Of a DNA stretch of 55,008 nt, positions 5,180 to 46,693 are shown one piece after another. The notes below the pieces were generated by a model, which saw nothing but the letters and a program-made list of their open reading frames with translations, had not been told where the DNA came from and ran no database searches. How positions within the stretch are numbered: the first letter of the stretch is position 1; the number at the start of each line of letters is the position of its first letter. Where the stretch lies: IMG/VR virus record IMGVR_UViG_3300045988_134234, positions 1 to 55,008 of that record, one strand, 5' to 3'. Position numbers and translations under genes: made by a program. The stretch comes from a virus. Lineage: Duplodnaviria; Heunggongvirae; Uroviricota; Caudoviricetes.

Positions 5180-5202
5180 TGTTAGAAAATTAATTTATTA
5201 AT
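5180..5202. promoter_or_regulatory. operator-like motif TGTTAGAAAATTAATTTATTAA
   Basis: Member of a dispersed motif family (more than 12 copies) located at promoter regions. Confidence 0.4.
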
Positions 5203-5765
5203 TCAGTCACCATCTGATACAACGTCATTTCATCAGCATTGTGCCGCCTGAAATCTGCTTTGCCGCCTATTTTTCCATCAGCATGAACAGGAACCAACCA
5301 GGGGTATTGCTCGCGGATCTCTGCTGGCGCTGCGTGTTGATGGTGCCATTTACACAAAGGGAGGACGTATTTATGCGCGTTCTCTGCTGTTCTCCCGAAG
5401 ATGTGGTGCAGGGATACCACAGGGCTATGCTGTCCGTGCATATGGCAGGCAATGCAGGGGAGAGCACCGATGGCAGTTTGTATCCGGCGCTCATCTGCTG
5501 TGAGTGTTCTGCCTTTCAGGCCGCGTGACGCGCGAGTTTTTTTGACAGGAGCAGAAGCGGCCTTCTCTTTTCTTCGCTGTTCATATTGCTTCGCTTTTTC
5601 AATTTTCTTTTGCCGATATTCAGGCGATGCGGCTTTTTCTCGCGCACGCTGCTGCTGGCGTTGAGCTTGCTGAAGACGCTTTGCCCTTTGTTCCTCCCGC
5701 CATTTCGGATCAGCCAGTTTTTGCAGGGCTTTTTGTGTCTGTTTCTCCCAATAGCTTTGCTTCAT
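5190..5765 (-). CDS. HNH-family nuclease with basic N-terminal region (P1 Ref-like)
   Basis: C-terminal C..C / HH...N..H...LCKWHH HNH-like motif; Lys/Arg/Gln-rich low-complexity N-terminus; ATG chosen at Met15 of ORF 5190..5807 (a TTG at 5807 is the alternative); operator palindrome immediately upstream. Confidence 0.5.
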   Translation of the reverse strand: MKQSYWEKQTQKALQKLADPKWREEQRAKRLQQAQRQQQRAREKAASPEYRQKKIEKAKQYEQRRKEKAASAPVKKTRASRGLKGRTLTADERRIQTAIGALPCIACHMHGQHSPVVSLHHIFGRTAENAHKYVLPLCKWHHQHAAPAEIREQYPWLVPVHADGKIGGKADFRRHNADEMTLYQMVTELIN

Positions 5766-5810
5766 AGAAATACCCGGTTTGTCTACATCGCCGCTATGGT
5801 TGATCAAATG

Positions 5811-5840
5811 TGTTAGAAAATCAAAATTGATTTTCTAACA
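5811..5840. promoter_or_regulatory. 30-bp near-perfect palindromic operator TGTTAGAAAATCAAA/ATTGATTTTCTAACA
   Basis: Inverted pair of the dispersed motif between divergent Ref-like gene and the 5882.. operon. Confidence 0.6.
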
Positions 5841-5881
5841 CAAAATGAAGATACTTTTTTCAGACGCTATATCAGGAGGTC

Positions 5882-6037
5882 ATGATGCTTGTCGCAATAA
5901 GTGCAATCCACCAGCAATCCGGTACAGAAATTGGGTTGCTATATGCCCTGTTTTTCACTGTCCTGGCGTTGTTTGAGCTGGGCATTGAACTCTTTGCTCT
6001 CATCAACTTTTGCGTAACGTTCCTGGGGAAACTTTGA
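5882..6037 (+). CDS. possible small membrane peptide (~51 aa)
   Basis: Strong AGGAGG RBS; hydrophobic MMLVAISAIHQQSGTEIGLLYALFFTVLALF...; stop overlaps ATG of next gene (TGATG); approximate coordinates. Confidence 0.35.
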   Translation: MMLVAISAIHQQSGTEIGLLYALFFTVLALFELGIELFALINFCVTFLGKL

Positions 6038-6648
6038 TGTCAAAACGCATTATGAAAATTTACATCGCGGGTCCGATGACTGGTTATCCCGACTACAACC
6101 GCACAGCGTTTTTTTCGAAAGCAAAAGAGCTGATGGAGGAAGGGCATATTGTTCTGAATCCGGCGCTGTTACCTGCTGGCCTCTGCCAGAGCGAATACAT
6201 GGATATTTGCCTTGCAATGGTGCGTTCGGCTAATGCGGTCTATTTGCTCAAGGGGTGGGAGGAATCAGTTGGCGCTCGTGCAGAGCACGAGCTGGCTCAA
6301 AAGCTGGGGCTGAATGTAATTTATGAGTCACCAACCAACATTGAATGCCAAGTTGCTCCGCATATTTACCGGGAACTGGTCAATGCACTGCGTGATATCG
6401 CTGCTGTATATCACGGCACAGAACAGCTTCGTGAGCGTTTAGCCCATACCATTTCCTATTACCTGTCTGCATCTCATGAGCACAAGCTCCGTCAGAAGGT
6501 AATGATCAAATTTATCATGAGGTTATCGAAATCCCTGGCAAACGCCGATCCAAAGAATCCATTACCGAAAGTGGCAATGAATTACCTGAAGTCCTGCAAC
6601 ATTGTTTCTGAAGATGGCGTTCTTTTGGTTAGAAGGAGTTCTGCGTGA
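6037..6648 (+). CDS. nucleoside 2-deoxyribosyltransferase-like (DUF4406-like) N-terminal domain protein
   Basis: KIYIAGPMTGYPDYN...VLNP...YLLKGWEESVGARAEHELAQKLGL resembles recalled DUF4406/NDT-like fold signature; internal ATG of ORF 6010..6648. Confidence 0.4.
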   Translation: MSKRIMKIYIAGPMTGYPDYNRTAFFSKAKELMEEGHIVLNPALLPAGLCQSEYMDICLAMVRSANAVYLLKGWEESVGARAEHELAQKLGLNVIYESPTNIECQVAPHIYRELVNALRDIAAVYHGTEQLRERLAHTISYYLSASHEHKLRQKVMIKFIMRLSKSLANADPKNPLPKVAMNYLKSCNIVSEDGVLLVRRSSA

Positions 6649-6962
6649 GCTGGCGGGGATGGGGAAGGGCAGAAATCATGATACTCCGCCAGTGCGCCGG
6701 GACTATGACAGTCGAGGGTATTGGGAGACTGATCGGGCGTACCGGTGGTGCTGTCAGGACTAAAGCGCGGCAATTGCGGATCAGCATGATTCTGAAAGGT
6801 GACTTTCACCAGTCAGCCAAATACCGGCAGAGCGATATAGAGCTGGCGCGGCAGCTTCATCAGTGTGGCGTTCCCCGCCGTGAGATCGCAGAAAAGCTCG
6901 AAATGCCCCTGGGCATGATTAATCAGTACGTTTATTTCGAAAGGAGAGTGCATGAAGTCTGA
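6645..6962 (+). CDS. small HTH-like DNA-binding protein
   Basis: GTG start after AGGAG; two HTH-like segments (GRLIGRTGGAVRTKARQL; REIAEKLEMPLGMINQYV). Confidence 0.4.
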   Translation: MSWRGWGRAEIMILRQCAGTMTVEGIGRLIGRTGGAVRTKARQLRISMILKGDFHQSAKYRQSDIELARQLHQCGVPRREIAEKLEMPLGMINQYVYFERRVHEV

Positions 6963-7455
6963 AGGTTTAACGCCCGCACAACTGGCAGAGCGTAACGCTG
7001 AGTATGTAACGGAAATTTCCCGACTTGAGAAAGAGCGCGCGGCGCTGGCGGCGGAGAATGCACTTGCTCGTAAAGCTGTTCAGGCATTCTGTGATGTTGT
7101 TGGCGACAACACTGAGATTATCTCCGAGTTGGTTGGGCAAGATGGCGTTCTGGTTATTTTGAAGGCCATGAAGGCAACAGGAAATATGTCAGCCACCGAC
7201 GCTTTCCTGGCTGAAATACGTGCGGAGGCACGCAACGAGGGGATTAACTACACCGCAAGCCGTCTTGCTGCTGCGTTCAATCACGGATTTATCAATAAGT
7301 CTTTGCGTGAAGTTTTCGACGTTACACGCATGATTTTGTCAGCGAAAGAAGAGTTGGCTAATGAACCGCATCCGATTGATGGCCTGTCCGGTGAATATGC
7401 GGAGAAATCCCTTGAAGAATGGGCGGAACAGATTCGCAAAGGAGTTCAGTCATGA
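6952..7455 (+). CDS. hypothetical coiled-coil protein
   Basis: AAGGAGAG RBS; coiled-coil segment ERAALAAENALARK also seen in the 8495.. gene. Confidence 0.45.
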   Translation: MKSEGLTPAQLAERNAEYVTEISRLEKERAALAAENALARKAVQAFCDVVGDNTEIISELVGQDGVLVILKAMKATGNMSATDAFLAEIRAEARNEGINYTASRLAAAFNHGFINKSLREVFDVTRMILSAKEELANEPHPIDGLSGEYAEKSLEEWAEQIRKGVQS

Positions 7456-10413: not shown

Positions 10414-10443
10414 TGTTAGAATATTGATTTTAATTTTCTAACA
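10414..10443. promoter_or_regulatory. operator-like inverted pair TGTTAGAA...TTTCTAACA
   Basis: Between phosphatase gene and the 10486 gene. Confidence 0.5.
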
Positions 10444-10485: not shown

Positions 10486-11481
10486 ATGAGTGCAATAATC
10501 ACACCTCATTTCGTAAACGGAGCTGGTGTGGCTGTCTTTCCGGTAGACAAGCCCACCAGCAACTACATTGGCGCAGGTCGCCGTTTCATTATCTCTCCAC
10601 TTCCGCGTGAACAGGCTGAAAACACGCCAGATGGCGTAGTGGATCTGAATTATTCGCTGGTTGCCAACCAGTCTCTGAAACCGTTTTTTCAAAGCGAGCG
10701 CGTATTTAACGCGTTGGGCGGTGAAGATTCGCTTGTTCATTGGGTAAGTTCCAATATCCACGATTGCCAGGCGCACGATAAGCGCGATTGCAGCCACCAG
10801 CTAACCACTCATTTCTATAACGGCTCTGCCGTTCGCCTGTGCTGGAAGCATGATGCGGAATACATGATGAAGGGGTACAGCAAGCTGGACGACCAGTTAT
10901 CCCTGAATCGTGCCAACTGGGTTATGAACTGGGCTGCGAGCGAGTTAAAACTACCGCCAGAACGCGATCTGAGCATGGTTGAACTCACTTTTTGGGCCAT
11001 TCGCCGAAATCTTAAAGACGAGCTGCCAGATGAAGCCGGTCGCATTGCATTTTGTCAGCCAAAACAGGAAATCCCTACCGGCACACTGAAAGAATCGGAT
11101 ATCACCTGGGAGCACAGCACCCGTGAGCTGGTGGACATAACCGCAGAGCAGATCGTCAACCTGTCTGTAGATGAGGATTCCGGCCTGCTGTATATGCGCC
11201 GACCAAAAGCGGTTCTCGGTAAAAGCCCGGCTTATCTCCGGTTTGTGATTTCTCGTCCGTGCATCGGATGCGGTGGCAAAGTTAATCACCCGTTCATGTA
11301 CCGCGCCCGCTCGTTAAACGAACACGATCGCTGGGCCGTTCCTCTTTGCGATGAATGCGCCAGAAGCGCAGAAAACGATGTCCGGGCATGGGAAAAAGCA
11401 CATGGCATACGCCTTTACGTAGCCGCTAACCAGCTTTTCGACTTCGCCATCGAGCGCGGAGTGATCACGTTCAATAACTGA
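10486..11481 (+). CDS. hypothetical protein with C-terminal Cys cluster
   Basis: 331 aa; CIGCGG...CDEC motif near C-terminus; family not assigned. Confidence 0.5.
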   Translation: MSAIITPHFVNGAGVAVFPVDKPTSNYIGAGRRFIISPLPREQAENTPDGVVDLNYSLVANQSLKPFFQSERVFNALGGEDSLVHWVSSNIHDCQAHDKRDCSHQLTTHFYNGSAVRLCWKHDAEYMMKGYSKLDDQLSLNRANWVMNWAASELKLPPERDLSMVELTFWAIRRNLKDELPDEAGRIAFCQPKQEIPTGTLKESDITWEHSTRELVDITAEQIVNLSVDEDSGLLYMRRPKAVLGKSPAYLRFVISRPCIGCGGKVNHPFMYRARSLNEHDRWAVPLCDECARSAENDVRAWEKAHGIRLYVAANQLFDFAIERGVITFNN

Positions 11482-23462: not shown

Positions 23463-23484
23463 TGTTAGAAAATTAATTTATGAG
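23463..23484. promoter_or_regulatory. operator-like motif TGTTAGAAAATTAATTTATGAG
   Basis: Overlaps 3' end of cre-like gene, upstream of 23405 operon. Confidence 0.4.
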
Positions 23485-24506
23485 TCCATCAGGCGACTAT
23501 TTGCACCAACGGATGCCCCGCTACGGCGCAAATATCGCATAAGTGTTTCGGGCTTTTTCCATGTGCCTTCCTGCATGATCTCGACCATTGACACCTGTTT
23601 CTCAGCCATATCAATTGCCGCACCAACACGCGCACTATGACCTGTCCACGTCCGGTATCTTCCTTTGTTCGGCGTTGCATCTCGTTTGTTCAGCAACCCC
23701 CAGGCATCGCTGAATATTTTCTCCATTGCAGGTGCAGTAAGGGGAGTTGTCGTGATTCTGGCCTTATTACTGCGGTGTATTGGCGGGAATAGCACCGCGT
23801 CCGGATGTTGACGAAGTCCGGACACCTCCAGCCAGTCGTTCAGTACGGCGGTAGTGCAACGAGAAAGCACCTTATCAAGTCCGGCGGCGGTCGTGATGGT
23901 CTTCGTGTGTGAAATATGCAGCGTTACAGTGTCACCTGTTTGGTCCAGATCTCCGACGCGGATGCGCGAGATTTCTGACATACGCATCAGGGTATTGTAT
24001 GCCACGAAGAGAAACGCCCGATTGCGCAGGTCCACCAGCCGCTCGGAACGGGACAGCAATACGTCGAGCAATTTCAGATCATCCCACCGCAACGGTATAG
24101 CCTGGCCTGTTCGCTCGCCTTTTTCCGTTGCCGCTTCGCGTCGGATGCGCCGCATGGCCAGAGACACACTTTTATCGTCCGACAGTGGCGGGAGGCCACA
24201 TTGCGAAAGCAGCATGTTAAGCATGGCATAGTGCTTATCAATGGTGGTCGAAGCCAGATCGGCCTCATGCAACTGGAGAAGATACTCGCGGGCCATTTCC
24301 GGCGTAATCGGGAACCAGGGGCGCTGGCGCGAATTACACCACCGCGCCCAGGAATGAAACACCAGACGGAGATCACGAAGTGTATTTGGGGCATAAGCTC
24401 CCTGGTCGTTCATGAACTGCATAAAGTTTTTTGCAGCTTCCTGGTATTCGGTGCCAATATCGCGCAGAAAACCACCAGAACCGCCGGAGATAACTAGTTC
24501 ACCCAT
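23478..24506 (-). CDS. cre: Cre-like tyrosine site-specific recombinase
   Basis: 342 aa; colinear with recalled P1 Cre (HSWARWC/RSWAAWC, KHYAMLNML, VSLAMRRIRRE, AYNTLMRMSEISRIRV, GHSARVGAAIDMA, W...Y near C-terminus). Confidence 0.85.
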   Translation of the reverse strand: MGELVISGGSGGFLRDIGTEYQEAAKNFMQFMNDQGAYAPNTLRDLRLVFHSWARWCNSRQRPWFPITPEMAREYLLQLHEADLASTTIDKHYAMLNMLLSQCGLPPLSDDKSVSLAMRRIRREAATEKGERTGQAIPLRWDDLKLLDVLLSRSERLVDLRNRAFLFVAYNTLMRMSEISRIRVGDLDQTGDTVTLHISHTKTITTAAGLDKVLSRCTTAVLNDWLEVSGLRQHPDAVLFPPIHRSNKARITTTPLTAPAMEKIFSDAWGLLNKRDATPNKGRYRTWTGHSARVGAAIDMAEKQVSMVEIMQEGTWKKPETLMRYLRRSGASVGANSRLMDS

Positions 24507-24691: not shown

Positions 24692-24771
24692 AAATCGGGA
24701 CTTTTTTCCCAAAAAAAACACCGACCAGATCACTTCGCAAATCCGTCAGCCATGCGGTAGCCGTTCCTGGT

Positions 24772-24786
24772 TACATTTTCTAATAG
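24772..24786. promoter_or_regulatory. operator-like motif (ACATTTTCTAATAGG)
   Basis: Inverted relative to the 24860 copy, upstream of candidate repressor gene. Confidence 0.4.
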
Positions 24787-24859: not shown

Positions 24860-24875
24860 TGTTAGAAAACTAAAT
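24860..24875. promoter_or_regulatory. operator-like motif TGTTAGAAAACTAAAT about 12 nt upstream of the 24888 ATG
   Basis: Motif immediately precedes RBS/start of the 345-aa gene. Confidence 0.45.
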
Positions 24876-24887
24876 CGAGTAGGAATA

Positions 24888-25925
24888 ATGAGTAAGAAGT
24901 CGATCGAGAATGAGTACAAACGGTTCCTGCAAACCGCTGAACGGTGGAAAGAGCTGGTGGTCGCAAACTCTGTTTTCCATGATACCAGTTATGTTGGCGA
25001 GGAATTTCGCCATGTTGCATTAACACATGATCCGGCTGTATTAGAAGAAGCTGAAAAATGCATAGCCGAATGGAAAGCCTTTGTTGATCTGTGTCGCAAG
25101 GATGATGACAAAGCCTCAAACATTGTTGAGTCGGTTTATTTACCGATCCCATTCATTGTTGAGGATACTAATCAGAGTACGCATATCGTTATGCAAAGCG
25201 CAACCACAACGAGAACATTTACGCGCGAAGACCTGCTGAAAAAATACGATAAAACTATAAAGAAAAGCATGAAAAACAGGATATTTTCACAGGTTGTCGG
25301 TGCGCTTGAAGAAGAACGCAGATTCTTCGCCGCTGAACGTGAGGGCGAGGTATACCGCGCAAGAAAAGAAGGTTATACCGATGTGGTGATTACCACCAAT
25401 ATCGAGGGCAACAATGGACTTTCACGCTTCAGAGTGGGTACGCACGGTGCGCTGATCTTTGCCAGAAAAGCAAACACAGAGATTCCCGTTGTTAACAACG
25501 TTGGTGAGCGCCGCACCCTTACCATTTACACTGGCATTAAACCGCTTCCGTGCGGACTTCTCGGCGAATTTGACCTTTATCGGGTTCGTGATCTGGAAAA
25601 GCAGCAGCCAAGCTATGTCGTGAAGTCATATATCCTGAGAAACATTGATATCCGCAATCAGAGTTTAAAAAACAAATCAGATAAAATGCTGGCCGAAGCC
25701 GATCCAGCCATACACCAGATCGTTAGCCGGAAAATTCAAGAGGCTAAAGATGCAATGGCAAGGCTGGATAAAATGGACCTGGAACTACTGGAAGTTATGA
25801 TTGCCTCCGGCGATGACCTGACAGGCATCCGCCTTACTGAAGCCAGGAAAAAATACGGTAAAAGCGTTGAAGAACGCTATGGGTACACATTCACACAAAC
25901 GATGTACGCGGCAAAACTCTGGTAA
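24888..25925 (+). CDS. hypothetical protein; candidate master repressor by position and operator context
   Basis: Internal ATG (Met22) of ORF 24825..25925 with AGGAA RBS; between lox/cre and terminase, convergent with pacB; no sequence-level family assignment possible. Confidence 0.35.
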   Translation: MSKKSIENEYKRFLQTAERWKELVVANSVFHDTSYVGEEFRHVALTHDPAVLEEAEKCIAEWKAFVDLCRKDDDKASNIVESVYLPIPFIVEDTNQSTHIVMQSATTTRTFTREDLLKKYDKTIKKSMKNRIFSQVVGALEEERRFFAAEREGEVYRARKEGYTDVVITTNIEGNNGLSRFRVGTHGALIFARKANTEIPVVNNVGERRTLTIYTGIKPLPCGLLGEFDLYRVRDLEKQQPSYVVKSYILRNIDIRNQSLKNKSDKMLAEADPAIHQIVSRKIQEAKDAMARLDKMDLELLEVMIASGDDLTGIRLTEARKKYGKSVEERYGYTFTQTMYAAKLW

Positions 25926-25942: not shown

Positions 25943-25964
25943 GCCCCGAATCGCCGGGGCTTTT
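25943..25964 (+). terminator. rho-independent terminator
   Basis: GCCCCG-aatcgc-CGGGGC followed by TTTT, directly after the 24888..25925 stop. Confidence 0.55.
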
Positions 25965-27471: not shown

Positions 27472-28835
27472 TAGTCATCCTCCGGCTGGTCTATCGCAAT
27501 CTCGTCATCCACAGCATCAAAACCGGTATCCCCCGCGTCATAATCACCGTAGATATCAGCCGTGGCGGAAGGGTCTATATTCAGGTCTTCATCATTGGCC
27601 TCAAATTCACCGGCTTTACGTTCTCCGTTCCGGTCGTAATCCCCCATCCCAAGCCTATCAACGATTTTCGCTACTTCAGCCCGGCGTTGTGCAAGCCATT
27701 GTGGGAGTCCAGCTTGTTGCTCGGCAAACTGCTTCGCCTCTTTATCCAGTTGCTCATCATCAACATCGTTAACGTCAGAAACCGGAGGCTCCAGAAGTGA
27801 GATCGCTTTTGCCGCTCGTGCCGCCAGGATAGCCGGGACACTGACGCCCTGCCGCTCGATATATTCAGCAACACCTATATCATCCAGCTCCTCGCGCTCA
27901 CGCATACGTATAGCGGCGGCGATAACTCTGGCGGCGCGTGCGTCAGCGCCAATGCGATACTCAATCTCCTTGCCACGCTGCTCGGCTTGTAGGCGGGCAA
28001 TCGCCAGTTTTTCTCTGGCCTCAGCCTCCCTGAATGCCTGCTGACGCGCGCCCTGCGCAAGTTTTTCATCCCCCTGGCGTAGCTTCTGCTCGTTCTGATA
28101 GATGGCTGCCAGCCTGGTGATAAAGTCATTCATGTAGTAGGCCGCATCGCTGATCAGTCCGAGAAGACGCTGCCCTGGGTGCATCCCCTCTGGCTGTGTA
28201 TCACCGAGGGCGTCAATCTCTTCCTGTAGTCGCTCCGCTTCCTGGTCAACGATAGCCTGATACTGAATTGCTCGTTCCTGCGCCATCTGTATCGCAAGTC
28301 GTAAATGTTCAGTCGCGCCGTTCTTCATCATCTCACGGGCGACGTTGGTGGCTGGCAAAGTGGCGCTTTGAGCTGATGAATCAGGGATCATTTGCAATGA
28401 TCCCTTGTTTCGTTGGGCTTTTTCGCTGCTTTTAGGGATCATTTCTCCAATTTCATCACAAAATGATCCCTTCACATCCTTGTGTATCTTGCTGTTATTG
28501 CTTGACTTTTCTTTGTGATCCGCATTTTGTTTTTGCGGCATGGCGCGGAACCGTCCACCAGCTAACGATTTGTCAGTTTTTGTAAATTCTGTGCTTTTAT
28601 CAGCCTTTTTTTGCTCTTTTTTTGAGCCGGTGGCGCAGCTTTTTGCGCGCTGTTTTGTACTTTTCCCGGCAGCCTTAGCTTTCGCCTTAACCTCATTTTT
28701 TTTCATATTGAGATGCTTTCTGGCGGTGTTAAAGCTGAGGTCATGCTGCTCGCAATATTCTTTTATGGTGATCCCGGTTTCTTCTCTTAACTCCAGGAAC
28801 TTAGCTCGATGCGCTTCCCAGTTAATTAACGTCAT
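27471..28835 (-). CDS. pacA: terminase small subunit (PacA-like) containing pac-like GATC cluster
   Basis: N-terminal HTH-like (ITIKEYCEQHDLSFNTARKHL), Lys-rich region, acidic C-terminus; overlaps pacB start. Confidence 0.6.
   Translation of the reverse strand: MTLINWEAHRAKFLELREETGITIKEYCEQHDLSFNTARKHLNMKKNEVKAKAKAAGKSTKQRAKSCATGSKKEQKKADKSTEFTKTDKSLAGGRFRAMPQKQNADHKEKSSNNSKIHKDVKGSFCDEIGEMIPKSSEKAQRNKGSLQMIPDSSAQSATLPATNVAREMMKNGATEHLRLAIQMAQERAIQYQAIVDQEAERLQEEIDALGDTQPEGMHPGQRLLGLISDAAYYMNDFITRLAAIYQNEQKLRQGDEKLAQGARQQAFREAEAREKLAIARLQAEQRGKEIEYRIGADARAARVIAAAIRMREREELDDIGVAEYIERQGVSVPAILAARAAKAISLLEPPVSDVNDVDDEQLDKEAKQFAEQQAGLPQWLAQRRAEVAKIVDRLGMGDYDRNGERKAGEFEANDEDLNIDPSATADIYGDYDAGDTGFDAVDDEIAIDQPEDD
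28383..28520. promoter_or_regulatory. pac-like cluster of five GATC-containing heptamers (GGGATCA/TGATCCC)
   Basis: GATC at about 28386, 28399, 28437, 28465, 28516 arranged as inverted pairs within pacA codons about 105-150. Confidence 0.5.
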
Positions 28836-29224
28836 AGGGAAGCCTCACGTTTTTTCACAGCGGCGTTCCATAGCTGGTTAGTCATCGCCACCAACTGACG
28901 CTGCTCCTTTCGTAATTGAGCTTCTATCTTTCGGTTGGTGTTTTTCACCAACAGCCGACCGAATTCAGGAGTGCGCCCGCGCACCTTGAACTGGTATCCA
29001 TTCAGGCCATGTAACCAATATTTCCGGGGGTATACGCGGTCGTCTATTTCGCAAATGGCACGACTGGAACGAACAAAAAAACGTATGATGTTATTTACGT
29101 TTACGCGCGACACATGAAGGTGAGGATATTGTGCTTTTGCACGGCTGGTGATTTCGGTGACCGTCAGATAGCAGTCAGCCCTGATCATGATATCCGCTAT
29201 TTCGGCGCTACTGATTTGCTCCAT
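28832..29224 (-). CDS. hypothetical protein immediately upstream of pacA (Lpa-like position)
   Basis: 130 aa; operator palindrome directly upstream. Confidence 0.35.
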   Translation of the reverse strand: MEQISSAEIADIMIRADCYLTVTEITSRAKAQYPHLHVSRVNVNNIIRFFVRSSRAICEIDDRVYPRKYWLHGLNGYQFKVRGRTPEFGRLLVKNTNRKIEAQLRKEQRQLVAMTNQLWNAAVKKREASL

Positions 29225-29301
29225 TTATCCCCCGGATAGAAAAAGACCGAGGGGATGATAATCAGCTTGTTAATACTGAGAAGACTGTCAAAAACATGAT
29301 G

Positions 29302-29331
29302 TATTAGAAAATTAATATTAATTTACTAACA
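29302..29331. promoter_or_regulatory. operator-like imperfect palindrome TATTAGAAAATTAAT/ATTAATTTACTAACA
   Basis: Upstream of the 29224 start. Confidence 0.5.
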
Positions 29332-30741: not shown

Positions 30742-30817
30742 TGGTGGCCCCTACCGGACTTGAACCGGTGACCGTGCGATTATGAGTCGCCCGCTCTAAC
30801 CACTGAGCTAAGGGGCC
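30742..30817 (-). tRNA. tRNA anticodon CAU (Met or Ile2 via lysidine)
   Basis: RC reads GGCCCCTTAGCTCAGTGGTTAGAGC...CTCATAA...GGTTCAAGTCC...GGGGCCACCA; resembles recalled E. coli ileX/ileY-type tRNA. Confidence 0.8.
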
Positions 30818-30826
30818 AGATTACTG

Positions 30827-30955
30827 TTAATTACGCTTACGCTTTTTGCCAGAACCGCGTAAGGCTTTTGCCGCTTGCTCTACCCCGTATGCAACCACCA
30901 GCAGAAACAATAATGTCCACTCCGGGTTTTTATCGGCAAACGCCCAAAAATCCAT
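30827..30955 (-). CDS. possible small membrane peptide (~42 aa)
   Basis: MDFWAFADKNPEWTLLFLLVVAYG...; AGGTGG RBS-like upstream; approximate coordinates. Confidence 0.3.
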   Translation of the reverse strand: MDFWAFADKNPEWTLLFLLVVAYGVEQAAKALRGSGKKRKRN

Positions 30956-31133
30956 CACTTGCAGCCACCTTTTAAGACAAAACGCCATTGCTGTTAGGTT
31001 GCGGTGCCGGGTGCCTCCCGGTGACGTTAACCAGTTAACAATTAACGCCGGATCACTTATGGATTCTCGTTACGCCAGTAAAAAGACCACCTTTACTGTT
31101 TTAACTGTTCCGCGTGCGCTTAGCCGCATTCAC

Positions 31134-31246
31134 CGCAATGGTAAGAGCATTTGGCTGACTGGGCGGCGATGACGCCTGTACGCATTTGGTGATCCGGTTC
31201 TGCTTCCGGCATTCGCTTAATTAGCCAAATACTCTTAACGTTGCGA
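31134..31246. repeat. long-hairpin family unit B (abuts 3' end of tRNA-Ser)
   Basis: CGCAATGGTAAGAGCATTT ... AAATACTCTTAACGTTGCG. Confidence 0.45.
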
Positions 31247-31333
31247 TGGCGGAGAGTAATGGAATCGAACCATCATCGCTTGCGCGACGGGACGGTTTTC
31301 AAGACCGCTTGAGCACCATGCTCCCTACTCTCC
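31247..31333 (-). tRNA. tRNA-Ser (anticodon UGA), class II with long variable arm
   Basis: RC reads GGAGAGT...GCGGTCTTGAAAACCGT (anticodon TGA)...long variable arm...GGTTCGATTCC...ACTCTCCGCCA. Confidence 0.65.
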
Positions 31334-31483
31334 AGTGATTGTGGTGGTCGGTACTGATCTCCGACTGCGCCTCTTTTTTTCATAGCGCATAAGGCCGGTC
31401 AGTGCGCTTGATGACTGAGGCATCGATATTTACTACGCCGCCTCGTTGCCATAGGGCGGACTTGCGCGCCAGCAACGCGCATT

Positions 31484-31573
31484 CACCACAACGGAAAGAG
31501 CATTTATGGCTCGCATCGCGGGAAAAAGCCCACGGTAGAGAGTCGAACTCTACAAATGCTCTTACCTGTTGTG
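31484..31573. repeat. long-hairpin family unit C with internal T-loop-like hairpin
   Basis: CACCACAACGGAAAGAGCATTT ... AAATGCTCTTACCTGTTGTG; internal GTAGAG-TTCGACT-CTCTAC on minus strand. Confidence 0.45.
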
Positions 31574-31698
31574 TTGTGATGACCGGTGCTGATCTCCGGC
31601 TTGCGGTAATTTCAGACTCTCACGGGCGTTTAATTGCCCCGCCGAACAGCTCTTTTCCGCAATAGCTGCAATGTCTTTCGCGCATCAGCCTGCGCATT

Positions 31699-31788
31699 CA
31701 TCACAACGGTAAGGGTACTTCGTAGGGATTCGAACCCTCTGCCAAGCTCGGCGATCTCCGACGTCGCAAAATACCCTTACCTGTTGTG
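31699..31788. repeat. long-hairpin family unit D with internal T-arm-like GGGTTCGAATCCC (abuts tRNA-Thr)
   Basis: CATCACAACGGTAAGGGTA ... TACCCTTACCTGTTGTG; tRNA-like but lacks D-arm and CCA. Confidence 0.45.
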
Positions 31789-31789
31789 C

Positions 31790-31865
31790 TGGTGCCGATT
31801 AACGGACTCGAACCGCTGACATCCTGCTTACAAGGCAGGCGCTCTACCAACTGAGCTAAACCGGC
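31790..31865 (-). tRNA. tRNA-Thr (anticodon UGU)
   Basis: RC reads GCCGGTTTAGCTCAGTTGGTAGAGC GCCTGCCTTGTAAGCAGG...GGTTCGAGTCC...AATCGGCACCA. Confidence 0.8.
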
Positions 31866-31867
31866 AT

Positions 31868-31943
31868 TGGCGATGGTGGATGGATTTGAACCATCGACCC
31901 GTTGATTAACAGTCAACCGCTCTAACCGCTGAGCTACACCATC
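31868..31943 (-). tRNA. tRNA-Asn (anticodon GUU)
   Basis: RC reads GATGGTGTAGCTCAGCGGTTAGAGC GGTTGACTGTTAATCAACG...GGTTCAAATCC...CACCATCGCCA. Confidence 0.8.
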
Positions 31944-32930: not shown

Positions 32931-33139
32931 GATGATGACCCGATGCAGCCTGGCCCACTTAACATACTCACTGCCAGATCATCATCAATGAACACCTTAA
33001 AAAGACCTTCCGTGGCTCAAGTCACTGTCGTTTACTCCGTAAAATGCTCTCGCTGAAACCACTTTACGCACTAAACCTGCCGGGCATGTATTTGCACGGT
33101 GCCGGAGCTTTCCCTTACCTTAAAATTTACTTTCTAACA

Positions 33140-33259: not shown

Positions 33260-33289
33260 TGTTAGAAAGACAATTCTAATTTTCTAACA
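33260..33289. promoter_or_regulatory. operator-like inverted pair TGTTAGAAA-N12-TTTCTAACA
   Basis: Perfect 9-bp arms; downstream of the 402-aa gene, at the head of the non-coding tRNA island. Confidence 0.5.
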
Positions 33290-33291: not shown

Positions 33292-34500
33292 TTATTTCCC
33301 GTAAAGATTTTCAACTCCACCGTTCTTCTTATCCCACTCGTTCGCCCATACCCGGCAAGCATCAATTATTTCCTGACGGCGATCGCCCTGCATGAACGGA
33401 ATGCTTTCATGAAAGCTGCTTGGAATGCAGGCCACACTGAACACTGTATCAAACTCAGTCTGCTTGATTGCCTCCAACGTCTCTGGACGCATTTTCAATT
33501 CGTCGATCGGTGCATCCTTAGAGTCCATAATCCGGCGATGCAAGCGTGGAAAATCCGTTTCAAGGTACGCCATAATTTTATCTGCCAGACATTCGTCTAT
33601 GTCGGTATTCCAGTCAGTTTCGAAGCCAGGAATTCGGTAGTAAAGCGGCGTTCCCCATACTGACGGGATCACATCCATCGTCAGCAGGCGGCTGGTTCTG
33701 ATTTGCTGATGGTAATTTGCCGTCAGCAACGCTTCGCCACGTTGCCCAGTCTCCGCGACCAGACCATGCGGAAACTCATGGATATAGGCAATAGCTTCTC
33801 TTCCGTCATACATTAGCGGGAATGTCTCTGGCCTTTGCCCCATGCCACAGGCGCGATTCAGATCATGACCAAGCTCTGAACACTCTCGTTTCAATGTTTC
33901 AATAATGCTCTGCGCCGCTGCTAACTTTTTACGCAGTGTGACGAGTTCGCCTTGATACTCAACGCATTGCTGATTTAGCTTGGTTAAACGCTCTTTTAGT
34001 TCGCGACGCTCTCTTTTCAGCGTGCGGTTATCTTTCTCCGCAACATCCAGTCGTTTTGTCAGGCTTGGCGGATAGTCTTTTTTGTAACGACTCAAATCGA
34101 CTTCAGCAGATTTGCGCAGTGTATTTGCCTGCTCAAGACGCGCCTCCAGATTGCCGATCTCATTACGCATATTCGCGGCAAATTGATTAACTGCATCCCC
34201 CAGGCTTTCAACTGTCGCTGATACACCAGTGACTTGAGAAAAACGGATCAAGCCATCATTAACGGCTTGCTGATATTCCTCAAACTGATCCACCAGCTTA
34301 TTGTAATCAACTGCCCCATCATCAAGGAGCTGGTTGATTTCCGCCACCAGGTTATCTGTAGTGGCAATGACGCTCTCATGCAGTCGCTTTGACAGGTCAT
34401 CGCCCGGATTTCGTTTCTGTATAAGCGCGATTTGTGTCCGCAGTGTTTCAATTGCGGTTGAGATGATCTCCAGGCTTGATGATTCTACTTGCTGACTCAT
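33292..34500 (-). CDS. hypothetical protein (402 aa), coiled-coil N-terminal half
   Basis: Monocistronic unit bracketed by operator motifs and an upstream terminator. Confidence 0.55.
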   Translation of the reverse strand: MSQQVESSSLEIISTAIETLRTQIALIQKRNPGDDLSKRLHESVIATTDNLVAEINQLLDDGAVDYNKLVDQFEEYQQAVNDGLIRFSQVTGVSATVESLGDAVNQFAANMRNEIGNLEARLEQANTLRKSAEVDLSRYKKDYPPSLTKRLDVAEKDNRTLKRERRELKERLTKLNQQCVEYQGELVTLRKKLAAAQSIIETLKRECSELGHDLNRACGMGQRPETFPLMYDGREAIAYIHEFPHGLVAETGQRGEALLTANYHQQIRTSRLLTMDVIPSVWGTPLYYRIPGFETDWNTDIDECLADKIMAYLETDFPRLHRRIMDSKDAPIDELKMRPETLEAIKQTEFDTVFSVACIPSSFHESIPFMQGDRRQEIIDACRVWANEWDKKNGGVENLYGK

Positions 34501-34520
34501 GTTTGTTCCCTTTCTTGAAA

Positions 34521-34534
34521 TTAGTTTTCTAACA
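34521..34534. promoter_or_regulatory. operator-like motif (TTAGTTTTCTAACA) in promoter of the 402-aa gene
   Basis: About 20 nt upstream of the 34500 start. Confidence 0.4.
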
Positions 34535-35132: not shown

Positions 35133-35576
35133 TTAATCAAGATTTACATATTCCGTGATAGCTTTTATGGCTTCATCGGCACTGCGCGCCTCAAAGCAGT
35201 AATAGCCTGCTTCCGTGAGGCGGGTCATCCAGACGAGCTGTTCGGGAGTCAGACGGTTTCTCCCGTGCTTCATCTCAATGCGCATTCCGTGATACCCACC
35301 ACGAGCAAGGTCAATAGAAAGGTCCGGATAGCCCTTCTTCTGACCTTCTGCCACCATCTTAATGGCTGTCCTTTTGCCTCTCAGGCCGCCGTTCGGTGTT
35401 GAGTGTGTGTGCTCATACACGTATCGCATGTTGCGATACAGCCAATCCAGAACGCGAACCTGTTCGTAATGTTCGTAATTCCGTTTTAATAAGTCAGGAT
35501 TTCTTTCTAACTCTCTTAGTGCAGCAGCGTGCGGGGATATTTCAGAATACGCACTATGATGCCTGCGCCTTCGCAT
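35133..35576 (-). CDS. VRR-NUC domain nuclease-like protein
   Basis: GYPDLSIDLARGGYHGMRIEMK resembles recalled VRR-NUC (PD-(D/E)xK) signature; ATG at second Met. Confidence 0.55.
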   Translation of the reverse strand: MRRRRHHSAYSEISPHAAALRELERNPDLLKRNYEHYEQVRVLDWLYRNMRYVYEHTHSTPNGGLRGKRTAIKMVAEGQKKGYPDLSIDLARGGYHGMRIEMKHGRNRLTPEQLVWMTRLTEAGYYCFEARSADEAIKAITEYVNLD

Positions 35577-35579
35577 CAA

Positions 35580-35590
35580 ATTTCTAACAC
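35580..35590. promoter_or_regulatory. operator-like motif abutting VRR-NUC start
   Basis: TGTGTTAGAAATTTG immediately 5' of start on minus strand. Confidence 0.35.
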
Positions 35591-35765: not shown

Positions 35766-36026
35766 TTAATGGTTTATTTTATCCGGTTCGTTAATTTCCG
35801 TAACCGCCTTGTCGATAGCAATCATCCATCCTTCATAGGATAAATCATCAACAAGCCCCACCAGCTTATCGTCAGTGTGCGGAAAATAAATCCATCCCCA
35901 TTTCGAAGGGTTTTCTATATGCCGCAGGGTAAATACCCGCTTATAACGGTGGTATTCAAGGGCGTATCCCTTCCCTTGTGAGTACGCTTTTAAGTCGTCG
36001 ATCGTAAACCTACGATTCTTTCGCAT
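35766..36026 (-). CDS. hypothetical protein (86 aa)
   Basis: ORF downstream of DarB-like gene. Confidence 0.4.
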   Translation of the reverse strand: MRKNRRFTIDDLKAYSQGKGYALEYHRYKRVFTLRHIENPSKWGWIYFPHTDDKLVGLVDDLSYEGWMIAIDKAVTEINEPDKINH

Positions 36027-43974: not shown

Positions 43975-43978
43975 AAAA

Positions 43979-43997: not shown

Positions 43998-44005
43998 ATC
44001 ACACT

Positions 44006-44910: not shown

Positions 44911-45134
44911 CAGTGAGCCTCCGCAATGCCGGGATTGGTAATATTGCGATACCAGGGATTGGTGTTTGGTTGTGGGGAAGTAGAGAAACGACCAGTGAGA
45001 ACGCCATACTGATCAGGGATCAGAGAACGGGCTTCTTTTTCAGTTGCGGCAATTGCGAAGTGATCGCAGTGTTTTTGCAGGGAGTGAAAACGCCAGATGA
45101 ATTCTGGACGTGAGCAAGGATTGGCATTAACCAT
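44910..45134 (-). CDS. small protein (paralog of 4163..4378)
   Basis: EFIWRFHSLQKH...AIAATEKEARS. Confidence 0.5.
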   Translation of the reverse strand: MVNANPCSRPEFIWRFHSLQKHCDHFAIAATEKEARSLIPDQYGVLTGRFSTSPQPNTNPWYRNITNPGIAEAH

Positions 45135-45159
45135 AGTTACGGCCTCGTAAGTTGATAAA

Positions 45160-45360
45160 CAACCTGCGACCCGCTGTCAAACAGGTGGCAGGACGTGACA
45201 GGGTTGACAGACTGGCACTTACGAAACCAGCAGGCCGAAGCCTCCCCATCACGCCCCACCATAATTCGGGCGTAACGTGGTTTTACGGACACAAAAATAC
45301 CGCAATATCGGAAATGTGCGGTTGTCCGCGTAAGTATTCAGGCTGTCAAACCTGGTCGCA
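45160..45360. repeat. TGTCAAAC / GTTGACAG short repeats in leader region
   Basis: CGCTGTCAAACAGG, GGGTTGACAGACTGG, GGCTGTCAAACCTGG: two direct copies plus one complementary copy. Confidence 0.4.
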
Positions 45361-45462
45361 GAATTTGCTACGACGGCATGAATATAAGCCTGAACATTAG
45401 AAAGATCAACAGAATTTTTATCAAATGCTGTTTTTTAGTGACAATGTAAATCATACATTCTT

Positions 45463-45491
45463 GATTAGAAACATCAATTTAATTTTCTAAC
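45463..45491. promoter_or_regulatory. operator-like inverted pair GATTAGAAA...TTTTCTAACA (plus a single copy at about 45395..45410)
   Basis: Upstream of second Icd/Ant-like module. Confidence 0.5.
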
Positions 45492-45549
45492 ATACATTTT
45501 CGAGCGATGAAATTCCCGCCGCACGGTTATTGTACAGTCAATCGCAACA

Positions 45550-46497
45550 TCATCCCCGAAAGCCCTCCGGAATTGACCAGTCTTCCCGGTCAAATTCAGA
45601 CCTATAGCCACGCTGTTTCATCAGGTCAAATGCTTCATTGATGGTTGCACATCCCTGGGAAGCAGAATAATCCATAGAGAAATCCAGGGCGCTGGATCGT
45701 TTGGGCTTATTCACTGTGGTAGCACTACGTAACCATGCAAATTTTTTTGCCAGTTTTTCAGCGGTACGATACAGAGCCTGCCGTTTTGCGTACCCCTCGT
45801 CTGAACGACGCTTTGCAGCTCTCGCTTTTGCTGCCGCCAGGCAGTGGTTGGTATGTTCTTCCCTGATTACTGTCAAGCCATTATCCGCTTGAGAACTATC
45901 TGCTGGTGAAGCCTTTGGCTGAACCGCGCATGATCTTTCTCTTCTTTTGGCTATAGAGTGACTCTTATTTTCTATTGGCTGTTCATTTTGAACATGGGGG
46001 GACTTGTTCAATTTGAACAGGGGGTTCCCAGTTTCAAAAAAATAACGAACCTTTGAAATCAACTGCTTAACCAGTTTTGTGGCGTTGGCAAATTTGATGC
46101 CCTGCTTACTCCCTATCTCCATTGCTACATGAATGAAGTGGAGAAATTGTGTTGTAAACCGGTACACGTTACACACCTGAGCATTGTTATTCGCTACCTG
46201 ATGCTGCTTAACAAGCATTCCGCACTTCGTCGCTTCGGTAAATGCCCGGCGCACAGTAGAAATACTGCGTCCTGTAATCTCGGACATATCAGCATATGAG
46301 CGACGGATCATGTATTCATCGGTAGCTCCTGCCAGGTTGGCGAACTCGGCAATAATGGCGCTATGTGAAGGGGAAAGAAAACCGCTATGACGAGCAAAAA
46401 AACTCAACTGATGACCTTTGATTTTTTTGTGGTATTCAGTGTTGTTTTTATACTCAGAAGTGTTGAAAGTAACTGAAACTGAATTTAAAATACTCAC
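45550..46497 (-). CDS. HTH-containing protein; candidate replication initiator (speculative)
   Basis: HTH-like MSEITGRSISTVRRAFTEATKCGML; own operator-bearing promoter; repeats downstream. Confidence 0.3.
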   Translation of the reverse strand: MSILNSVSVTFNTSEYKNNTEYHKKIKGHQLSFFARHSGFLSPSHSAIIAEFANLAGATDEYMIRRSYADMSEITGRSISTVRRAFTEATKCGMLVKQHQVANNNAQVCNVYRFTTQFLHFIHVAMEIGSKQGIKFANATKLVKQLISKVRYFFETGNPLFKLNKSPHVQNEQPIENKSHSIAKRRERSCAVQPKASPADSSQADNGLTVIREEHTNHCLAAAKARAAKRRSDEGYAKRQALYRTAEKLAKKFAWLRSATTVNKPKRSSALDFSMDYSASQGCATINEAFDLMKQRGYRSEFDREDWSIPEGFRG

Positions 46498-46669
46498 CAG
46501 ATAGTTCCGTGAAAAATCTATCTACCGTATAAATCTATGCCAGTGGATTTATACACCCAAAAGCCGCTACTCAGCGGCTTTTGCTTTTTTTGGCAGTCGC
46601 TACCGAAGCAGTGACCGCGATCCTACTCGATCACGTGCCGTCGGATCAACAGTGTATAAAAACACACTG

Positions 46670-46693
46670 TGTTAGAAAATTAAGCTAGCTTTT
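46670..46693. promoter_or_regulatory. operator-like motif TGTTAGAAAATTAAGCTAGC
   Basis: In the 200-bp gap upstream of the 46497 start. Confidence 0.45.

What the first reader, a model, noticed from the sequence alone, without database searches (positions are those of the whole stretch)
5180..46693. Dispersed operator-like motif family (consensus about TGTTAGAAAATTAATTT), frequently in inverted pairs, at promoters of early-type genes
At least 14 copies seen at about 5180, 5811 (30-bp near-perfect palindrome), 10414, 23463, 24772, 24860, 29302, 33140, 33260, 34521, 35580, 45395, 45463 and 46670. They sit upstream of the Ref-like nuclease, the cre-downstream operon, the gene upstream of pacA, the 402-aa orphan gene, VRR-NUC, the second Icd/Ant-like module and the HTH protein gene. 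This mirrors the P1 arrangement where one repressor (C1) controls many scattered asymmetric operators; the 3' half (AAT.AATTT) resembles the recalled P1 C1 operator ATTGCTCTAATAAATTT. The 24888..25925 gene has a copy about 12 nt before its start and occupies the repressor-like position next to lox/cre, making it the best candidate for the cognate autoregulated repressor.
Basis: partly seen in the sequence, partly recalled or inferred. Interest (0 to 1): 0.65.

Follow-up and report, generated by a model that had tools for sequence, protein, structure and literature searches.

The report
Operator set of a D6-type C1 repressor
The repeated motif is real and is almost certainly the set of binding sites through which the master repressor of a D6-like (P1-family) plasmid-prophage keeps its lytic genes off: an expected system in a new sequence flavour, whose repressor is predicted to share the fold of Tus, the protein that halts DNA replication forks at the chromosome terminus.

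Summary
There are 16 strong half-sites (core TGTTAGAAA plus an AT-rich tail) at 12 loci, where about 0.03-0.2 are expected by chance. All lie in or at the edge of intergenic DNA, and five loci are 30-bp inverted pairs. Of the 14 positions listed, 12 hold. 24772 is a weak but positionally conserved core, and 45395 is rejected.

The window is a D6-like P1-family phage-plasmid. Gene 24888-25925 is the D6-type c1. It is 81% identical to D6 C1 and only 21% identical to P1 C1, but both match PHROG 1678 end to end.

Ten of the 12 loci occupy the same gene contexts as experimentally defined P1 C1 operators (ref, ref 3' end, c1, lpa, tRNA/ban-type operon, pmgS, pmgM, c4-icd-ant, repL). The core is conserved at these positions in three relatives, down to 40% C1 identity, while the flanks diverge. 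P1-type and D6-type operator sets are mutually exclusive.

It is a new member of a known kind.

Differences from P1: operator sequence, bivalent geometry (30 vs 28 bp), no detectable Coi or Lxc, and a roughly 100-aa C-terminal extension on C1.

Unexpected extra: the predicted C1 core resembles only Tus among solved structures. That would explain monomeric reading of asymmetric sites. Binding itself is untested.

The parts
24888..25925 (+). c1: candidate cognate repressor (345 aa), D6-type member of the P1 C1 family
   Evidence: 81% identical to D6 C1. 21% identical over 241 aa to P1 C1, E=2e-7. Full-length match to PHROG 1678, as for P1 C1. NCBIfam phage_rep_C1 scores only 24 bits against a cut-off of 500. 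Annotated 'phage repressor protein' in related plasmids. The predicted core fold matches only Tus.
24860..24876 (+). Operator E (monovalent), 11 nt upstream of the c1 ATG; presumed autoregulatory site
   Evidence: PWM 26.2 bits. Core invariant in 4 genomes, downstream of a conserved TTTACT-17-TAAATT promoter-like block. Positional equivalent of P1 Oc1.
24769..24785 (-).
   Evidence: TATTAGAAAAT core, PWM below 0. An inverted TTAGAAAA core is conserved at this position in the window, D6, the S. dysenteriae plasmid and the Enterobacter plasmid. Its core centre is 83 bp from that of E.
5180..5196 (+). Operator A (monovalent), overlapping the stop codon of the ref-like gene (5190-5807, -); upstream of the second isrK/C4-icd-ant module
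   Evidence: Exact consensus. Conserved in D6, L008 and L009. Same position as P1 Omat, which overlaps the ref 3' end. C4 RNA at 4433-4520(-) and isrK at 4565-4643(-).
5811..5840 (.). Operator B (bivalent, 30-bp palindrome) between divergent ref (-) and the rightward early operon (+)
   Evidence: Two half-sites of 31.6 and 32.8 bits, offset 13 bp. Ref homologue confirmed. P1 Oref equivalent. Internal TTGATT acts as a -35-like hexamer for the rightward unit.
10414..10443 (.). Operator C (bivalent), upstream of the pdcB-like DUF968 gene (10486-11481, +)
   Evidence: 27.1 and 32.2 bits. Conserved in D6, L008 and L009. TTGATT-17-TATTTT promoter-like site inside it. No operator at this position in the P1 annotation.
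23463..23479 (+). Operator D (monovalent), overlapping the 3' end of the dre/cre-like recombinase gene; precedes the leftward orf117-dut-isaA operon
   Evidence: Exact consensus. Conserved in D6, L008 and L009. Cre homologue confirmed. No P1 counterpart.
29302..29331 (.). Operator F (bivalent), upstream of lpa (late-promoter activator, 28832-29224, -)
   Evidence: 31.9 and 29.4 bits. The lpa-proximal half is conserved in 4 genomes. Lpa homologue confirmed. P1 Olpa equivalent.
33260..33289 (.). Operator H (bivalent), heading the leftward tRNA (Asn, Thr, Ser, Met-CAT) operon
   Evidence: 25.9 and 28.1 bits. Abuts the - strand promoter-like site 33257>33229, TTGATT-17-TAGAAT. tRNAs lie on the - strand downstream. 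Same position and valency as P1 bivalent Obanab, which heads the tRNA-tci-ban operon.
33123..33139 (-). Operator G (monovalent), in the leader about 100 nt downstream of the H promoter
   Evidence: 28.7 bits. Conserved in D6, L008 and L009.
34518..34534 (-). Operator I (monovalent), upstream of the 402-aa pmgS-like gene (33292-34500, -)
   Evidence: 31.5 bits. The -10 of promoter-like site 34558>34531 overlaps it, and a terminator-like hairpin (34601-34580) lies upstream. PmgS homologue confirmed. P1 OpmgRa/b equivalent.
35573..35589 (-). Operator J (monovalent), over the start of the VRR-NUC (pmgM-like) gene
   Evidence: 23.4 bits. About 26 nt downstream of the best promoter-like site in the region (35642>35615, 10/12, TG-extended). 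PmgM homologue confirmed. Counterpart of P1 O26/Oppp, which flank pmgL-pmgM. Absent in L009.
45463..45492 (.). Operator K (strong half 45476-45492 on the - strand, degenerate partner 45463-45479 on the + strand), upstream of a1b1-C4-icd-ant (immI)
   Evidence: 30.0 bits and 1.9 bits. The -35 of promoter-like site 45477>45450 lies inside it. Rfam finds the c4-a1b1 target at 45335-45387 and C4 RNA at 45181-45266 just downstream. P1 Oc4 (Op51) equivalent.
46670..46686 (+). Operator L (monovalent), upstream of repL (45550-46497, -), the lytic replication gene
   Evidence: 22.0 bits. Conserved in D6, L008 and L009. RepL homologue confirmed. P1 OrepL (Op53) equivalent.

Best explanation
The motif family is the operator set of the prophage master repressor of a D6-like, P1-family phage-plasmid. 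In the lysogen, the 345-aa C1 homologue (24888-25925) is proposed to bind each asymmetric site. The protein most likely reads the 9-11 bp core TGTTAGAAA(AT), and the AT-rich tail contributes little specificity. Single sites would bind one molecule. In the 30-bp inverted pairs the two cores are 21 bp apart, which is two helical turns, so two molecules would sit on the same DNA face. Because the sites overlap, abut or lie just downstream of sigma-70-like promoters, occupancy would block initiation or early elongation of the following units: ref, the rightward early operon, the pdcB-like operon, the operon downstream of dre, lpa (the late-gene activator), the tRNA operon, pmgS, pmgM, both c4-icd-ant antirepressor modules, repL (lytic replication) and c1 itself (autoregulation). 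Shown here: the sites exist, are non-random, intergenic, positionally conserved, and in the same gene contexts as proven P1 C1 operators, and a C1 homologue is encoded at the canonical place. Inferred: that this protein binds them, as a monomer per half-site, and represses.
For: Statistics. Replicon identity and c1 homology. P1 operators are annotated in the P1 record and their gene contexts match 10 of the 12 window loci; the flanking-gene homologies were confirmed by tblastn. A C4 RNA and its a1b1 target lie immediately downstream of site K, as they do downstream of P1 Oc4. A tRNA operon lies downstream of bivalent H, as it does downstream of P1 bivalent Obanab. Footprint: core positions 1-9 are 82-100% identical at orthologous loci in D6 and in the plasmids whose C1 is 68% and 40% identical, while the flanks are 44-75% identical. 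Genome-wide, a 97-99% identical plasmid has 14 loci, and one of the two extra loci is a pair upstream of rdgC/hrdC, which is the P1 Odmt position. Specificity tracks phage type in the same host genus: there are no P1-type sites in the window or D6 and no D6-type sites in P1. A relative with 30% C1 identity carries a tentative third motif at the same slots. Promoter-like hexamers overlap or abut sites H, I and K and lie just upstream of J. P1 background (22 dispersed asymmetric 17-bp operators; C1 represses repL, lpa and ref): PMC8546580, PMC4713147. The predicted C1 core has the fold of Tus, which binds an asymmetric site as a monomer (monomeric binding is from my own knowledge); this is consistent with half-site-by-half-site recognition.
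Against: There are no binding, expression or genetic data for this element. C1 homology to P1 is remote (21% identity, far below the NCBIfam equivalog cut-off). Promoter-like sites in these regions are not more frequent than in shuffles, so promoter assignments are weak. Sites A and D sit at the 3' ends of genes, 20-70 nt from any predicted promoter. Site orientation relative to transcription is mixed (5 parallel, 3 antiparallel). Co-variation with C1 is confounded, because P1 and D6-type phages differ in all their genes. Coi and Lxc, which are integral to the P1 circuit, were not detected (PMC6799933).
Confidence: 0.84

Rival explanations
1. The sites are bound by a different regulator, either another phage-encoded DNA-binding protein or a host factor, and the C1 homologue recognises something else.
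For: No direct link between protein and motif was tested. The window and its relatives encode other putative DNA-binding proteins ('DNA-binding protein', HTH and Rha-family annotations). The core stays the same while C1 drops to 40% identity, so fine-scale co-variation with C1 is not seen.
Against: A host factor is unlikely, because P1 and D6-type elements share Escherichia hosts yet carry mutually exclusive motifs at the same gene positions. The positions coincide with experimentally defined P1 C1 operators, including the c1 promoter itself. No other dispersed word apart from Chi is enriched that could serve as 'the' C1 operator.
Confidence: 0.07
2. The motif is a promoter element (an early-promoter signature or the Lpa-dependent late-promoter box) rather than a repressor site.
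For: Several sites supply or overlap -35- or -10-like hexamers (TTGATT inside pairs B and C; TATGTT at I).
Against: The P1 late-promoter box is CAAGTGACT...TAnAAT, which is unrelated, and occurs once in the window at 690-714. Sites occur at variable distances and in both orientations relative to the promoter-like hexamers, as palindromic pairs, in leaders (G, J) and over stop codons (A, D). That pattern fits operators, not RNA polymerase recognition elements. The genes served are early or regulatory, not late structural genes.
Confidence: 0.04
3. The sites are Ter-like polar barriers: a Tus-fold C1 bound to asymmetric sites primarily arrests replication forks (or acts as a polar roadblock) rather than acting as a classical operator.
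For: The only significant structural match of the predicted C1 core is Tus bound to Ter. The sites are asymmetric. Some lie in leaders or at gene ends rather than on promoters.
Against: In P1 the homologous protein is an established transcriptional repressor (PMC8546580, PMC4713147). Five loci are symmetric pairs, which would give no polarity. Single-site orientations show no pattern around repL/oriL or the plasmid replication gene. The Ter sequence is not significantly similar to the operator. Sequence-level homology to Tus is unproven.
Confidence: 0.04
4. The copies are a chance AT-rich repeat or remnants of a small mobile repeat with no regulatory role.
For: The tail of the motif is AT-rich, like the intergenic DNA around it.
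Against: 16 sites are observed where 0.02-0.2 are expected. The core is conserved at orthologous positions while the flanks diverge. The copies share no similarity beyond about 20 bp.
Confidence: 0.01

Closest known systems
Bacteriophage P1 C1 repressor and its dispersed operators (Oref, Omat, Ossb, Oc4, OrepL, Odmt, Obanab, O26, Oppp, OpmgR, OpmgT, Olpa, Oc1a-e)
   Same: One repressor gene lies between pacB and the lox/cre-type module. There are about 14-20 asymmetric 17-bp sites scattered over about 90 kb. Monovalent sites and overlapping inverted 'bivalent' sites are mixed. The same targets are served (ref, c1, lpa, repL, c4-icd-ant, tRNA/ban operon, pmgR/S, pmgM region, hrdC/dmt operon). 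Both motifs have an information-rich core of about 9 bp followed by an AT-rich tail.
   Different: The core sequence is TGTTAGAAA instead of TGCTCTAAT, with no cross-matching sites. Bivalent sites span 30 bp (core centres 21 bp apart) against 28 bp (15 bp apart) in P1. The C1 proteins are only 21% identical, and the D6-type carries an extra C-terminal helical region of about 100 aa. No Coi, ImcA/B or Lxc homologue was found (PMC6799933). There is one strong and one weak site at c1 against five in P1. Operators at pdcB and after the recombinase gene have no P1 counterpart.
Phage D6 immC region and D6-like plasmid prophages (AY753669, NC_050154/MF356679, pYU39_89)
   Same: Same gene order and the same C1 type (81% identity). 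The same motif lies at syntenic positions. The window belongs to this lineage and is 97-99% identical to E. marmotae plasmid NZ_CP099353.1.
   Different: Several pairs in the window are single sites in D6 (for example lpa and ref). The window lacks the D6 tciAB segment. The public D6 records annotate c1 and rox but no operator features. I could not read the D6 genome paper (Gilcrease & Casjens 2018) to see whether the sites are described in its text.
Tus-Ter replication fork trap of Enterobacterales (PDB 1ECR, 4XR0-2)
   Different: There is no detectable sequence family relationship: no Pfam PF05472 hit, the profile search against PDB sequences is empty, and hhalign probability is 0.3-9.5%. 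TM-scores are only 0.44-0.49. The Ter sequence is not significantly similar to the operator. The function is transcriptional repression, not fork arrest.
Mycobacteriophage L5/L1 repressor with many asymmetric operators ('stoperators')
   Same: It works alike: a single prophage repressor recognises numerous dispersed asymmetric sites, some within transcription units rather than on promoters (PMC1934351 abstract; details of L5 gp71 are from my own knowledge).
   Different: The protein family is unrelated (HTH repressor), the sites are 13 bp, and the phage lineage and host are different. No homology was tested or implied.

Membership tests
P1-type C1 repressor / multi-operator immunity (immC) system | Repressor homologous to P1 C1 | tested here: met
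   Both proteins match PHROG 1678 end to end (E=4e-159 and 3e-140). BLASTP gives 21% identity over 241 aa, E=2e-7. The homology is distant: NCBIfam NF041318 scores 24 bits against an equivalog cut-off of 500, so the protein is a family member but not an equivalog.
P1-type C1 repressor / multi-operator immunity (immC) system | c1 located between pacB and the lox/cre-type recombination module | tested here: met
   pacB lies at 25963-27471(-), c1 at 24888-25925(+) and the dre/cre homologue at 23478-24506(-).
P1-type C1 repressor / multi-operator immunity (immC) system | Many dispersed asymmetric ~17-bp operators, some as overlapping inverted (bivalent) pairs | tested here: met
   16 half-sites at 12 loci in the window and 20 half-sites at 14 loci in the near-identical complete plasmid; five loci are pairs.
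P1-type C1 repressor / multi-operator immunity (immC) system | Operator sequence ATTGCTCTAATAAATTT (P1/P7 immunity specificity) | tested here: not met
   There is no P1-type site in the window (best 10.7 bits, TGCTCTAAT 0 copies) and no window-type site in P1. The element is therefore a different specificity class, not a P1/P7-immunity member.
P1-type C1 repressor / multi-operator immunity (immC) system | Operators placed at the promoters of the lytic-control genes (repL, lpa, ant module, ref, ban operon, c1 itself) | tested here: met
   10 of 12 loci share gene context with annotated P1 operators. Overlap with promoter-like hexamers is seen at H, I and K, but those predictions are weak.
P1-type C1 repressor / multi-operator immunity (immC) system | Accessory modulators Coi (antirepressor upstream of c1) and Lxc (corepressor) | tested here: not met
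   tblastn of P1 Coi, ImcA, ImcB and Lxc against the window finds nothing at E<=0.01. The 86-aa ORF in the lxc position (35766-36026) shows no similarity to Lxc. PMC6799933 also reports Lxc undetected in D6-like elements. Non-homologous analogues are not excluded.
P1-type C1 repressor / multi-operator immunity (immC) system | Specific binding of C1 to the sites and repression in vivo | not testable with these tools
   Requires EMSA or footprinting, ChIP or reporter assays.
Tus (Ter-binding protein, Pfam PF05472) family | Tus fold (two alpha/beta domains joined by DNA-contacting beta-strands) | tested here: met
   [not shown]
Tus (Ter-binding protein, Pfam PF05472) family | Sequence membership (Pfam PF05472 or a significant profile match) | tested here: not met
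   No Pfam hit even at E<=10. The C1 profile against PDB sequences finds nothing. hhalign probability is 0.3% and 9.5% with a 71-sequence C1 profile. C1 homologues carry a separate Pfam family, PF27008.
Tus (Ter-binding protein, Pfam PF05472) family | Polar arrest of replication forks at its sites | not testable with these tools
   Needs fork-arrest assays. Site orientations show no obvious trap-like arrangement.

The most novel reading that the evidence does not exclude
The C1 repressors of P1/D6-type phage-plasmids are Tus-fold proteins. A small family (87 clusters among 1.84 billion representatives), confined as far as sampled here to Enterobacterales, Aeromonas and Acinetobacter plasmids, would read asymmetric operators as monomeric clamps. 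It may share ancestry with the replication terminator Tus, which is thought to have been 'domesticated' in Enterobacterales. If so, C1-operator complexes could also act as orientation-dependent roadblocks to transcription or replication, and the D6-type C-terminal helical extension could mediate pairing of two monomers on the 30-bp, same-face bivalent sites.
Probability: 0.35. Interest if true: 0.7.

Novelty: new member of a known kind. Interest (0 to 1): 0.4.

Why it matters
This defines the immunity specificity and the repressor-controlled regulon of the D6-like phage-plasmids, which are widespread in Escherichia, Salmonella and Shigella (153 plasmid records carry this C1 type). That allows prediction of hetero- or homo-immunity among co-resident P1-like and D6-like elements. 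It also provides orthogonal repressor/operator parts next to the already exploited Dre/rox system, and it marks which cargo and lytic genes are silent in lysogens. The side result, a Tus-like predicted fold for the C1 family, offers a testable structural explanation for how P1-type repressors read asymmetric operators without dyad symmetry. It also hints at a possible evolutionary link between a phage-plasmid repressor and the chromosomal fork-trap protein.

Tried and rejected
1. The D6 genome paper (Gilcrease & Casjens 2018), Sauer & McDermott 2004 and Lobocka 2004 are not in the library. Full-text searches for the motif string and for 'C1 operator' with D6 found nothing relevant. I therefore cannot say whether the D6-type operator consensus has been printed before.
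2. Site 45395 is rejected.
3. Late-promoter (Lpa box) identity is rejected.
4. The 86-aa ORF at the lxc position shows no similarity to Lxc.
5. For the Leclercia relative (30% C1 identity), exact k-mers gave no motif and a CTCTTTCA candidate had incoherent flanks. A mismatch-tolerant intergenic search then gave a tentative CCTTAGAAT(C/T)TAT motif, with too few copies to be sure.
6. The Ter-versus-operator sequence resemblance (TATGTT..AACTAA) is not significant: 62% of shuffles do as well against the consensus, and p is about 0.04 (uncorrected) for site E only.
7. Sequence-level C1-Tus homology was probed four ways. The profile against PDB sequences found nothing. hhalign gave probabilities of 0.3% and 9.5%. 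The Tus homologue search returned only proteins at least 81% identical among the 120 listed, so no deep Tus profile could be built.
8. The AFDB50 fold library was unavailable.
9. Site orientation relative to transcription or to the replication genes showed no consistent rule.

Full report
OBSERVATION. The motif is real. TGTTAGAAAATTAATTT with up to 3 mismatches occurs 14 times against 0.23 expected. An iterated position weight matrix separates 16 half-sites (22-33 bits) from everything else in the window (next best 6.8 bits). Simulating the window's own intergenic DNA with first- or third-order Markov chains gives 0.02-0.04 sites against the 14-16 observed, so AT-richness does not explain it. 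An assumption-free count of dispersed 9-mers recovers the core as the most frequent word after Chi. The sites form 12 loci. Seven are single sites. Five are inverted pairs whose two 17-mers overlap by 4 bp to give a 30-bp palindrome. One of those five pairs (45463/45476) has a degenerate partner. '24772' is a weak, core-only match that is nevertheless conserved in position. '45395' is not a site. Information content and cross-species conservation both show that the specific part is TGTTAGAAA(AT). The AT-rich tail carries little information.

WHAT THE REPLICON IS. The window is a D6-like member of the P1 family of plasmid prophages. It is 75-98% identical in DNA to phage D6 over syntenic blocks. 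It is 97-99% identical to an Escherichia marmotae plasmid, NZ_CP099353.1. Gene 24888-25925 is 81% identical to the protein annotated in D6 as 'C1; similar to the C1 repressor of P1'. Its similarity to P1 C1 is remote (21% over 241 residues) and far below NCBI's equivalog cut-off. Even so, both proteins match PHROG 1678 over their full length. The gene also lies in the P1 position, between pacB and the recombinase/rox module.

POSITIONAL ORTHOLOGY WITH PROVEN P1 OPERATORS. The P1 RefSeq record annotates all C1 operators. Using tblastn-confirmed homologues of the flanking genes, Rfam and tRNA detection, ten of the 12 window loci fall in the same contexts:
- 5811-5840 corresponds to Oref.
- 5180 overlaps the ref stop codon, as Omat does.
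- 24860, with the weak 24769-24785 site, corresponds to Oc1.
- 29302-29331 corresponds to Olpa.
- The bivalent 33260-33289, with 33123 in its leader, heads a tRNA-Asn/Thr/... operon exactly as bivalent Obanab does.
- 34518 corresponds to OpmgR.
- 35573 corresponds to O26/Oppp, which flank pmgM.
- 45463-45492 lies immediately upstream of the a1b1 target, C4 RNA, icd and ant, as Oc4 does.
- 46670 corresponds to OrepL.
In the complete related plasmid, a further pair sits upstream of rdgC/hrdC, which is the Odmt position. Two loci (10414-10443 before the pdcB-like gene, and 23463 after the recombinase gene) have no P1 counterpart.

CONSERVATION AND SPECIFICITY. The same motif occupies the same slots in D6, in a Shigella dysenteriae plasmid whose C1 is 68% identical, and in an Enterobacter plasmid whose C1 is only 40% identical. 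Across orthologous loci, core positions 1-9 are 82-100% identical while the flanks are 44-75% identical. In the most distant relative the core is 85% identical against about 50% for the flanks (alignments). P1-type and D6-type sites are mutually exclusive between genomes that share hosts. That argues against a host factor and for a phage-type-specific protein. A Leclercia plasmid (C1 about 30% identical) lacks the motif and shows a tentative third one, CCTTAGAAT(C/T)TAT, again before c1, after the recombinase gene and after the gene in the pmgS position.

HOW IT PROBABLY WORKS. By analogy with P1, C1 represses repL, lpa, ref and other genes from 22 dispersed asymmetric 17-bp operators (PMC8546580, PMC4713147). 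Here the C1 homologue is inferred to occupy these sites in the lysogen.
- Promoter-like hexamers overlap or abut sites H, I and K and precede J.
- In pairs B and C the internal TTGATT doubles as a -35-like element.
- These promoter predictions are weak, because the counts do not exceed shuffle expectations.
- The site 11 nt before the c1 ATG lies about +10 to +27 from a conserved promoter-like block. With the distal inverted core 83 bp away, it suggests autoregulation, possibly by looping as reported for P1 (looping in P1 is from my own recollection).
Control of lpa, repL and both antirepressor modules would suffice to hold the whole lytic programme.

DIFFERENCES FROM P1.
- The cores differ (TGTTAGAAA vs TGCTCTAAT).
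- Bivalent sites are 30 bp with core centres 21 bp apart (two helical turns, same face). In P1 they are 28 bp with centres 15 bp apart.
- D6-type C1 carries a roughly 100-residue C-terminal helical extension that P1 C1 and most of the family lack. A role in pairing monomers on bivalent sites is my speculation.
- No Coi, ImcA/B or Lxc homologue is detectable. This agrees with PMC6799933.

RIVALS. Three rivals remain possible but unlikely: a different binding protein, a promoter-element role, and a Ter-like barrier role. Chance is excluded.

NOVELTY AND LIMITS. This is the expected regulatory architecture of a P1 relative, realised with a different operator sequence and geometry, so I class it as a new member of a known kind. 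The public D6 records carry no operator annotation. I could not read the D6 genome paper, so prior description in its text cannot be excluded. Nothing here demonstrates binding; every functional statement is inference from position, conservation and homology.

Noticed in passing
[not shown]
   Followed up: yes
window 25623-25925 (C1 residues 246-345): D6-type C1 proteins carry a roughly 100-aa C-terminal extension that is predicted helical. P1 C1 and most of the 87 family clusters (250-290 aa) lack it. Its function is unknown. It coincides with the different bivalent-operator geometry (core centres 21 bp apart here, 15 bp in P1).
   Followed up: partly
whole window, e.g. 371, 1421, 3908, 5908 ...: Chi sites (GCTGGTGG) are strongly over-represented: 39 copies (14 on the + strand, 25 on the - strand) against about 1.7 expected. 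The same holds in D6, P1 and the other relatives, where Chi-containing words are the top dispersed 9-mers.
   Followed up: partly
window 4433-4520(-), 4565-4643(-), 45181-45266(-), 45335-45387(-): There are two separate C4 antisense-RNA modules, each followed by icd and an antirepressor-type gene. One has a c4-a1b1 target element, and the other is preceded by an isrK-like RNA. Each has an operator upstream (45476 and 5180).
   Followed up: partly
window 30742-31943(-); L003 6084-7850: The tRNA genes (Asn, Thr, Ser-UGA, Met/Ile2-CAT) lie on the - strand, downstream of the bivalent operator at 33260-33289. The D6 RefSeq record lists its tRNAs on the + strand, whereas ARAGORN finds them on the - strand. 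The window also lacks the D6 tciA/tciB segment (D6 6281-6909).
   Followed up: partly
window 29229-29254(-): A GC-rich hairpin (CCCCTCGG...CCGGGGG), conserved in four genomes, sits directly before the lpa start codon and includes the likely Shine-Dalgarno sequence. It may add translational or attenuation control to the late activator.
   Followed up: no
window 690-714(+): There is a single strong match to the P1 late-promoter box (GACAAGTGACTTTCATTAATCT). No other P1-type late promoter reached 14 bits in the window, so the D6-type Lpa may recognise a diverged box.
   Followed up: no
window 35766-36026(-): An 86-aa ORF lies immediately downstream of the ulx homologue, where P1 has lxc. It shows no similarity to Lxc (PHROG 6844, unknown function) and could be a non-homologous analogue.
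   Followed up: partly
L010 (Leclercia plasmid NZ_CP042508.1) 9473, 8084, 24320, 19207, 4069: A tentative third operator type, CCTTAGAAT(C/T)TAT, occurs in an element whose C1 is about 30% identical. Copies lie before c1, at the 3' end of the recombinase gene and after the gene in the pmgS position.
   Followed up: partly
proteins P0001-P0011: All close C1 homologues carry a precomputed Pfam family, PF27008, which is absent from the local Pfam copy. I could not retrieve its name or description, which might already state a structural classification.
   Followed up: no
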